Assembly (NCBI GenBank): GCA_013239625.1
Contig: MU057344.1
Span: forward strand, 12,917,276 to 12,981,275
Source: Lama guanicoe
Lineage: Eukaryota
Direction of reading: 5' to 3'
DNA length: 64,000 bases
Shown: positions 51,316-55,901 of the stretch, piece by piece
Position numbering within the stretch: the stretch's first letter is position 1
How the letters are laid out: each line of letters starts with the position of its first letter
Notes under the pieces: model-generated
The model's database searches: none
Told to the model about the DNA's origin: nothing
What the model saw: the letters and a program-made list of their open reading frames with translations, nothing else
Translations under genes and position numbers: made by a program

Positions 51316-51453
51316 CACTGTGCTCGCCAGCCACTGAGTCCACTGCACTTCCCCCGCTCTCCGAGCCCACGCTACCACCGTGGTCAGCAGGAGAAGTCCG
51401 AAGGGTGGAGCCGTCAGTCGCTGCTGTGCTGCCCTCATCGTCCGAGGCTGGAG
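51316..51453 (-). CDS. UBR4: UBR4 exon (A)PASDDEGS...AGEHS
   Basis: cccag / GTAATG, 138 nt, phase 1-1. Confidence 0.95.
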
Positions 51454-52874
51454 CTGGGAGAGTAACGAGAGCTGTTACAGGTAAAAACCCCTCCTTGGGG
51501 CGAAAGCATCAAACCACATAGTGCAGGGGACACAATGCAGTTTATGTATCCTGTCGTCAAAGAAAAAAGGGAAAAATCTGCTTCGCTGGTTAATCACTAA
51601 CAGGAACAAACACTATACACAGTGCATTGCAAACAGTACTTAGACAGAAGTGAAAACCCAGTTCACTGGGCATTTCCTTCGCTGTTACATTACAGTGCAA
51701 GTAAAATAGTGCAGAGATTCAAGAAGAATCTGTGACATGGACGCTCAGCTTTCTAGCTAAAATGCTTCCCGGTCACCATAGTCTAGGTGTTACTGACACC
51801 TGCTGAGATCGGAAACTAGCCATTACCATTCAAAAGCATAAACTCTGAATTTTAATGAGATTTGTTTTGTAATCAATTTATGCTTATGCTAGGAAATCAC
51901 TTTGCATGAGCTCTTGAATCAACCCTGTTTGGTTTTTTTTAATCAGGTGGTCTAGAGGGGGAGCTCATTGGGAAATTTCACACTTCCNNNNNNNNNNNNN
52001 NNNNNNNNNNNNNNNNNNNNNNNNNNNNNNNNNNNNNNNNNNNNNNNNNNNNNNNNNNNNNNNNNNNNNNNNNNNNNNNNNNNNNNNNNNNNNNNNNNNN
52101 NNNNNNNNNNNNNNNNNNNNNNNNNNNNNNNNNNNNNNNNNNNAACTGGCACAGCACAAGGGCGACCTCCAAGCCTGAAATGACAGCAACTAAACAGACC
52201 TAAGAAAAGCAACAAGCCATGGCAGCAGGTGAGAGGGGACAGCCAATTTCTCCCTTTCTATCTACCCATGATAAAATGCCCAAAACAAGAAAGAAAGAAA
52301 AAAAAAGAAAAACAAATATAGGGGAAAAGCATCAGTCTGAAAACTCTAAATCAACCCTTAAATCACTCAGGGGTTGATTTTCCAGCAGACTGTTCAGGTG
52401 TTCTGCCCTCCTGTATTTGGACCAATGCTCTATTCAGGGGATAATTTTTTTTTTCTTATCAGATTAAGAAAGAGATGGAAAGTAAAGACAAAATGAGGTC
52501 TAAAGATTTCCTATGCATTTGAATTGTTCACAAAAACCCTACCTCCCAAGCTCAGATCCCTGACGGTTACCCACACTGACATGAAGCGTAACTCAGCTTC
52601 CGGCAGCTTCACTTTTATTTGCAGATGGAAGAAAGAAAAAAAGTTAAAAGGTGTGAGCTCTACTTCTTGTCTCCTTTTTAATACTGTCTGAAATGTTAGA
52701 ACTCTGGTGAAGAACCCTAGAAGCTGTGATTTAAGACCTGAAGCTGATCAACCTGCAAGCCGCTCTCTCGGCCTTTCCTTGGGGAATCAGCTGAAGCCAG
52801 GCAGCATGCAAAGTGTAGGGAAGCGGAGCCATGAGCGCCTTTGCCAAGCTGCTTCGCTATGCCTTCCACACCCG

Positions 52875-55685: not shown

Positions 55686-55901
<216 letters not shown>

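What the first reader, a model, noticed from the sequence alone, without database searches (positions are those of the whole stretch)
52543..52611. Candidate 69-nt in-frame cassette exon (VKLPEAELRFMSVWVTVRDLSLG) in the UBR4 linker
Seen on the minus strand: cttttaactttttttctttcttccatctgcaaataaaag|TGAAGCTGCCG...AGCTTGGGAG|gtaggg. There is a branch-like TTAAC, a long pyrimidine tract and a UGC near the AG. The length is exactly 69 nt and it is stop-free in phase 1-1, the phase required by the downstream APASDD exon. It would insert an ordered-looking 23-aa peptide into a Ser/Gly/acidic disordered linker and is not part of the canonical UBR4 I recall. An internal donor (TGG|GTAACC) would instead give a 41-nt frameshifting form. 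An AATAAA (52614-52619) overlaps the acceptor. Function and tissue specificity are inference.
Basis: partly seen in the sequence, partly recalled or inferred. Interest (0 to 1): 0.7.

Follow-up and report, generated by a model that had tools for sequence, protein, structure and literature searches.

The report
Likely pseudoexon in UBR4 intron 57
A 69-base exon-shaped stretch lies in an intron of the camel-family UBR4 gene, but its peptide is missing from every related UBR4 protein examined, so it is likely an ordinary look-alike that the splicing machinery mostly ignores.

Summary
The motifs are present as described: AG|69 nt|GTAGGG, open only in phase 1, branch-like TTTAAC, pyrimidine tract, UGC, AATAAA. 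Three canonical exons lie between the NTPM and APASDD exons, and the host is the orthologue of human intron 57 (phase 1, so the frame claim holds).

Against an exon: none of 56 mammalian UBR4 models, and none of 174 other sequences covering this junction, carries the peptide. The same sample does show the neighbouring real events (35-aa exon 58 skipped in 9 of 56; three exon-59 acceptors). The acceptor (AAG after a purine run) scores below all 47 real acceptors mapped in the window.

For an exon: strong donor, displaced pyrimidine tract and UGC resemble SRRM3/4 targets. That pattern occurs about 0.09 times per 55 kb of background, so roughly 30 chance cases over this genome's 331 scanned windows.

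No RNA reads and no mammalian intron alignment were available, so low-level or camelid-only use is not excluded. Verdict: pseudoexon about 0.62, lineage-restricted minor exon about 0.22. No earlier scan note covers this DNA. Side lead: a conserved UIM-like helix ends exon 57.

The parts
52543..52611 (-). Candidate 69-nt segment (likely pseudoexon), open in phase 1 only
   Evidence: peptide absent from 364 proteins held
52612..52620 (-). Purine run and AAG acceptor; holds AATAAA at 52619-52614
   Evidence: PWM -10.2 against 1.6 to 15.0 for 47 real acceptors, all of which are YAG with at most 4 purines in -12..-3
52621..52648 (-). Branch-like TTTAAC (A at 52644), pyrimidine tract (19 of 20) and UGC at 52623-52621, displaced about 10 nt from the AG
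52537..52542 (-). Strong donor GAG|GTAGGG
   Evidence: score 8.7, above 35 of 47 real donors and in the top 0.6% of intronic GTs
52565..52570 (-). Weak internal donor TGG|GTAACC (41-nt frameshifting form)
   Evidence: generic PWM 3.5 against 8.0 for the distal donor (frequencies recalled)
52805..52810 (-). TGCATG, the RBFOX-type element (motif name recalled), in the same intron
55769..55880 (-). Canonical UBR4 exon ending RSNTPM-G (phase 1 donor); three exons upstream of the host intron, not the direct neighbour
51316..51453 (-). Canonical APASDD exon (human exon 59 by inference), with alternative acceptors at 51471 (+18 nt) and 51447 (-6 nt)

Best explanation
The 69-nt segment is likely a pseudoexon: an exon-shaped piece of the UBR4 intron orthologous to human intron 57 that the spliceosome is predicted to skip or use only at noise level. 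Shown: a strong donor, branch-like motif and pyrimidine tract surround a frame-keeping segment, but the acceptor is an AAG cut off from the tract by a purine run. Inferred mechanism: U1 could bind the donor, but U2AF would engage the AG poorly, so exon 57 is joined to exon 58, or to exon 59 when exon 58 is skipped. Intron 57 may also be retained at times, as in human blood. The real regulated splicing in this linker is skipping of the 35-aa exon 58 and the choice among three exon-59 acceptors.
For: (1) 0 of 56 mammalian UBR4 models insert anything at the exon 57 junction: 47 go to exon 58 and 9 skip it. None of 174 other sequences with that junction carries this peptide. Best local score against 364 proteins is 36, self-score 121. 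(2) The sample detects neighbouring alternative events: an 11-aa exon absent in 24 of 56, a 28-aa exon absent in 37 of 56, the +18-nt acceptor used in 3 of 56. (3) Acceptor PWM -10.2, below all 47 real acceptors; 76% of intronic AGs score as well. (4) No hit for the peptide among proteins of 22-70 and 71-2000 residues, PDB chains or Pfam. (5) Look-alikes occur at 0.09-0.7 per 55 kb of background, about 30 or more expected over the 331 noted windows of this genome. (6) In human blood RNA, weakening the intron-57 donor gave intron retention, and the figure text shows one junction count per sample between exons 57 and 58 (PMC11382415, passages and supplement text; figure not seen).
Against: The donor is unusually strong. 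The layout (strong donor, strong tract and branch point set back from the AG, UGC between them) is the one described for SRRM3/4 targets (10.1101/2024.09.17.613571, passages), so a weak AG context is not by itself disqualifying. The combination was in 0 of 2000 shuffles at its own thresholds and is the only such site on the window's sense strand at the two stricter settings. Only the needed phase is open, and 4-mer content is more exon-like than 87% of intronic 69-mers. The 56 models are a small part of more than 2200 members of the mammal-rich clusters, and only one is camelid, a gappy GenBank model (P0115). An exon present in 2% of models would be missed about one time in three.
Confidence: 0.62

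Rival explanations
1. A lineage-restricted (camelid or nearby) minor cassette exon. SRRM3/4 or a similar factor would rescue the weak acceptor in neurons or endocrine cells, adding 23 residues right after the UIM-like helix of exon 57.
For: SRRM3/4-like layout; rate only 0.09 per 55 kb; only the needed phase is open; this linker tolerates insertions and deletions at this junction in frog and fish models (7-, 9- and 3-aa inserts).
Against: 69 nt is well beyond the 3-27 nt microexon range (abstract in search listing). UGC lies near 13% of intronic AGs. The one camelid model held lacks the insert.
Confidence: 0.22
2. A conserved mammalian tissue-specific cassette exon that the sampled annotation missed.
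For: Same sequence features; unannotated conserved in-frame cryptic exons exist in human (PMC11632617, passages); only 56 mammalian models were seen.
Against: 0 of 56 mammalian models, while three neighbouring conserved alternative exons and a minor acceptor were all seen. No short-ORF or fragment homologue. No UBR4 entry found in the supplement text held for PMC11632617 (weak, the exon table may not be held).
Confidence: 0.06
3. A non-coding element: a U-rich AATAAA intronic polyadenylation signal, or a decoy donor that binds U1 and promotes intron-57 retention or exon-58 skipping.
For: AATAAA with 18 T in the 30 nt upstream, more than any of 21 other sense-strand intronic AATAAA (at most 15). 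Human intron 57 shows intronic reads in controls (PMC11382415). Exon 58 is often skipped.
Against: AATAAA is common in these introns (21 sense, 37 antisense in 41 kb) and the downstream GU content is middling. No structure beyond shuffles (z = +1.6) and no Rfam match at the site.
Confidence: 0.1

Closest known systems
Pseudoexons: exon-like intronic sequences ignored by the spliceosome (PMC3800588, passages)
   Same: Plausible donor and acceptor inside an intron with an intrinsic splice-site defect, here the acceptor; no trace in annotated isoforms.
   Different: Non-use is not shown here by RNA; no activating variant is known.
SRRM3/4-dependent neural microexons (10.1101/2024.09.17.613571, passages)
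   Same: Strong 5' site; strong pyrimidine tract and branch point set back from the AG; UGC between them; frame-keeping.
   Different: 69 nt instead of 3-27 nt; the peptide is not conserved in vertebrate UBR4 models; neural inclusion untested.
UBR4 exon 58, the 35-aa cassette directly downstream (RefSeq-type models of macaque, orangutan, donkey, panda, guinea pig, right whale, shrew, bat, echidna)
   Same: Phase 1-1, in-frame, in the same low-complexity linker.
   Different: Exon 58 is nearly invariant from sharks to mammals and is annotated both included and skipped; the candidate is in no model seen.
Conserved cryptic exons of human introns (PMC11632617, abstract and passages)
   Same: Unannotated exon inside an annotated intron; a minority are in-frame.
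   Different: Those were defined by split reads, coverage and vertebrate conservation, none of which is shown here.

Membership tests
Conserved coding cassette exon | AG and GT boundaries with branch point and pyrimidine tract | tested here: met
   the acceptor is weaker than all 47 real ones
Conserved coding cassette exon | Length a multiple of 3, open in the phase of the host intron | tested here: met
   69 nt, open in phase 1 only; host intron phase 1 from human c.8488 and junction variants
Conserved coding cassette exon | Peptide present in some isoform models of orthologues | tested here: not met
   0 of 56 mammalian and 0 of 174 other junction-covering sequences; a sample, not all models
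Conserved coding cassette exon | Inclusion junction reads | not testable with these tools
   no run could be laid on the stretch
Conserved coding cassette exon | DNA conservation of splice sites and frame in other mammals | not testable with these tools
   scans gave 4 invertebrate-type loci and no locus
SRRM3/4-dependent microexon | Length 3-27 nt | tested here: not met
   69 nt; range from an abstract
SRRM3/4-dependent microexon | Strong 5' site; strong pyrimidine tract and branch point far from the AG; weak 3' context | tested here: met
   features
SRRM3/4-dependent microexon | UGC between branch point and AG | tested here: met
   52623-52621; also near 353 of 2798 intronic AGs
SRRM3/4-dependent microexon | Neural or endocrine inclusion that depends on SRRM3/4 | not testable with these tools
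   needs tissue RNA-seq or a minigene
Pseudoexon | Exon-like intronic sequence with an intrinsic splice-site defect | tested here: met
   AAG acceptor, 7 purines in -12..-3, PWM -10.2
Pseudoexon | Ignored by the spliceosome | tested here: inconclusive
   absent from all isoform models seen, but no camelid RNA was examined
Intronic polyadenylation site | AATAAA with U-rich upstream and GU/U-rich downstream element | tested here: inconclusive
   upstream very T-rich, downstream middling
Intronic polyadenylation site | 3'-end reads at the cleavage site | not testable with these tools
   no 3'-end data held

The most novel reading that the evidence does not exclude
A young, camelid-type, SRRM3/4-rescued neural cassette exon that places a 23-residue hydrophobic insert directly behind an unreported, animal-wide UIM-like helix of UBR4. 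Together with exon-58 skipping it would set the reach of a ubiquitin-binding arm inside the UBR4 (SIFI) chain-elongation ring.
Probability: 0.08. Interest if true: 0.55.

Novelty: not a real feature. Interest (0 to 1): 0.13.

Why it matters
As a pseudoexon it is ordinary and shows how well chance can mimic an SRRM4-type exon. If it were used, it would be a lineage-specific insert in an essential quality-control ligase whose splicing has been little studied (PMC12397408, passage). The more useful by-product is the map of this linker. Exon 58 is a real, widely annotated cassette, and it follows a deeply conserved UIM-like helix that the main texts of the two cryo-EM papers searched do not mention. 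UBR4 was pulled down as a binder of branched ubiquitin chains (PMC11109483, passages), so that helix is a testable lead.

Tried and rejected
RNA evidence: the look-up of sequencing runs on the 69-nt segment listed no RNA holder. This is no evidence either way, and it left no run to lay on the stretch.

Mammalian intron DNA: the metagenome scan gave 4 loci of invertebrate type; the prokaryote-genome scan gave none; a 23-nt pattern in viral contigs gave 0.

Peptide searches: none in proteins of 71-2000 residues or 22-70 residues, which do not cover full-length UBR4; none in PDB, Pfam or the Atlas (44, uninformative). A second cluster look-up returned the same mammalian members.

Repeat origin: no second copy of the segment and one 35-nt match elsewhere for another part of the intron. 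The search skips common words, so an old repeat is not excluded. RNA structure was no better than shuffles; Rfam found nothing at the site.

Literature: no paper found describing an exon in UBR4 intron 57. PMC6429586 and PMC5538435 name UBR4 only in references. PMC2678161 concerns a fusion. The preprint 10.1101/2024.02.28.582420 concerns a different, stop-bearing microexon, exon 50. Supplement text searches: nothing for UBR4 in PMC8187152, PMC12644568, PMC11632617, PMC12397408 (large tables and scanned files may not be held, so these blanks are weak); only the exon-50 event in the 2 of 4 places shown for PMC12424998.

Rejected: 'ordered-looking peptide' as evidence; N stretches as evidence of anything.

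Rows dropped: one doubtful intron boundary from the splice-site set (47 kept); EMC1, ALDH4A1 and five fragments without the linker from the mammal count.

Full report
Observation. The segment 52611-52543 is 69 nt between an AG and GAG|GTAGGG and gives the stated peptide; phases 0 and 2 contain stops. Upstream are TTTAAC (A at -33), a pyrimidine tract of 19 in 20, UGC at -12 to -10 and AATAAA at 52619-52614. The stretch is single copy in the own genome.

Gene context. The window holds the 3' half of UBR4 on the minus strand. Mapped exons match a Camelus ferus model almost residue for residue, and 47 introns could be placed with both splice sites. Vertebrate UBR4 proteins show three further exons between the NTPM exon (55880-55769) and the APASDD exon (51453-51316). 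They are not readable in my copy, so the direct neighbours are inferred. Human numbering fixes the place: the PASDD proline is residue 2866, the junction glycine lies 36 residues earlier, and c.8488 (codon 2830, phase 1) is the end of human exon 57 (PMC11382415, passages). The host is therefore inferred to be the orthologue of intron 57.

Isoform test. From 120 of 331 hits and two cluster look-ups I held 56 mammalian UBR4 models covering the junction. Of these 47 continue into exon 58, 9 skip it, and none inserts anything. Of 174 other sequences with the junction, three have short inserts (frog 7, whitefish 9, killifish 3 residues), none like the peptide. The best local score of the peptide against 364 proteins is 36, against a self-score of 121. 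The sample is sensitive to real events nearby: an 11-aa exon is absent in 24 of 56, a 28-aa exon in 37 of 56, and the +18-nt exon-59 acceptor is used in 3 of 56. Limits: the two main mammalian clusters hold 1741 and 485 members, the look-up returns the same 15 each time, and only one camelid model was seen. Searches of shorter proteins, PDB and Pfam found nothing.

Splice signals. Scored with matrices from the window's own sites, the donor is strong: 8.7, above 35 of 47 real donors and in the top 0.6% of 2326 intronic GTs. The acceptor is poor: -10.2 against 1.6 to 15.0. All 47 real acceptors are CAG or TAG with at most 4 purines in -12..-3; this one is AAG with 7. That is the intrinsic defect typical of pseudoexons (PMC3800588, passages). 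It is also the layout described for SRRM3/4 targets: strong donor, tract and branch point set back from the AG, UGC between them (10.1101/2024.09.17.613571, passages). This is the main point against my reading. The segment is far longer than a microexon, and UGC lies near 353 of 2798 intronic AGs.

Chance. At its own post-hoc thresholds the combination appeared in 0 of 2000 shuffles of the 731-nt readable intron segment, and in 4, 41 and 84 of 2000 at looser ones. On the antisense strand of the window there was 1 look-alike at slightly looser and 2-3 at typical thresholds. In 600 kb of other own-genome DNA, both strands, the rates per 55 kb were 0.05 (own thresholds), 0.44 (SRRM4-like; 0.09 with a weak acceptor) and 2.3 (typical; 0.69 weak). 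These rates include real exons and do not isolate T-rich sense introns, so they can err either way. The site is the best of its kind in this window, but 0.09 per window over 331 noted windows predicts about 30 such cases by chance. An open frame (33%) and the peptide's hydrophobicity (41% of intronic peptides as high) add little. Its 4-mer content is mildly exon-like: top 13% of intronic segments, low end of 41 real exons.

What is known. In a human carrier of c.8488+3A>G, intron 57 was retained; controls also show intronic reads, and the supplement's figure text gives one junction count per sample between exons 57 and 58 (blood only, figure not seen). Other papers found concern different UBR4 events. 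My searches found no report of an exon in this intron. Supplementary tables I could not see (Mazin 2021 and Margasyuk 2024 tables, bioRxiv files) may bear on this.

Mechanism and verdict. Most likely (0.62) U1 can bind the donor but the AG is poorly recognised, and the segment stays in the intron; this step is inferred. A lineage-restricted minor exon (0.22), a non-coding polyadenylation or decoy element (0.10) and a conserved exon missed by the sample (0.06) remain. Expression and DNA conservation could not be tested.

Side lead. Exon 57 ends in an acidic, LxxAxxxS-type helix (UIM pattern recalled) found in 266 of 266 long UBR4 proteins held (the search region contained it, so the count is biased). 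Pfam UIM matched it weakly in 2 of 5 proteins scanned (12-12.6 bits, cut-off 21). A fold of 34 residues with ubiquitin gave weak support: score 0.37, best of 3 controls 0.02, run agreement at least 85%, partner pLDDT at least 56. The mark was reached by 51 of 78 solved complexes and 2 of 108 mismatched pairs, but at 0.60 or under by only 5 of the 78 and by all 4 mismatches that passed. Peptides are untested in that calibration, and UIM-ubiquitin complexes are solved, so the pass may be from likeness. 'UIM' does not occur in the main text of PMC12286842 or PMC7618180 (term searches). The 8 papers were seen as a listing, one as passages. This does not depend on the candidate segment.

Noticed in passing
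exon upstream of the host intron (not readable in the window; P0115 residues 505-523): Conserved UIM-like helix in UBR4 from insects to mammals, directly before the exon-58 cassette; weak Pfam UIM match and weak predicted ubiquitin binding (0.37 against 0.02); not mentioned in the two structure papers searched.
   Followed up: partly
between window 52143 and 51454 (inferred; not readable): The 35-aa exon 58 is a real cassette: skipped in 9 of 56 mammalian models, nearly invariant from sharks to mammals.
   Followed up: yes
window 51471, 51453, 51447 (minus strand): Three in-frame acceptors for the APASDD exon (+6 residues, canonical, -2 residues), all seen in vertebrate models. The intron end upstream is well conserved among mammal-type ORFs. 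One bat model skips the whole exon.
   Followed up: partly
window 59984 (minus strand): GC donor (AAG|GCAAGT) at the end of the exon near 60050-59985, a GC-AG intron.
   Followed up: no
introns 61982-60050 and 58245-57366 (minus strand): Mammalian models carry an optional 11-aa exon and an optional 28-aa exon that map to these introns; neither was found in the readable sequence.
   Followed up: partly
window 59183-59043 and 25314-25258 (minus strand): Two further in-frame pseudoexon-like segments (141 and 57 nt) pass looser thresholds.
   Followed up: no
window 52810-52805 (minus strand): TGCATG element in the host intron, which could bear on exon-58 skipping.
   Followed up: no
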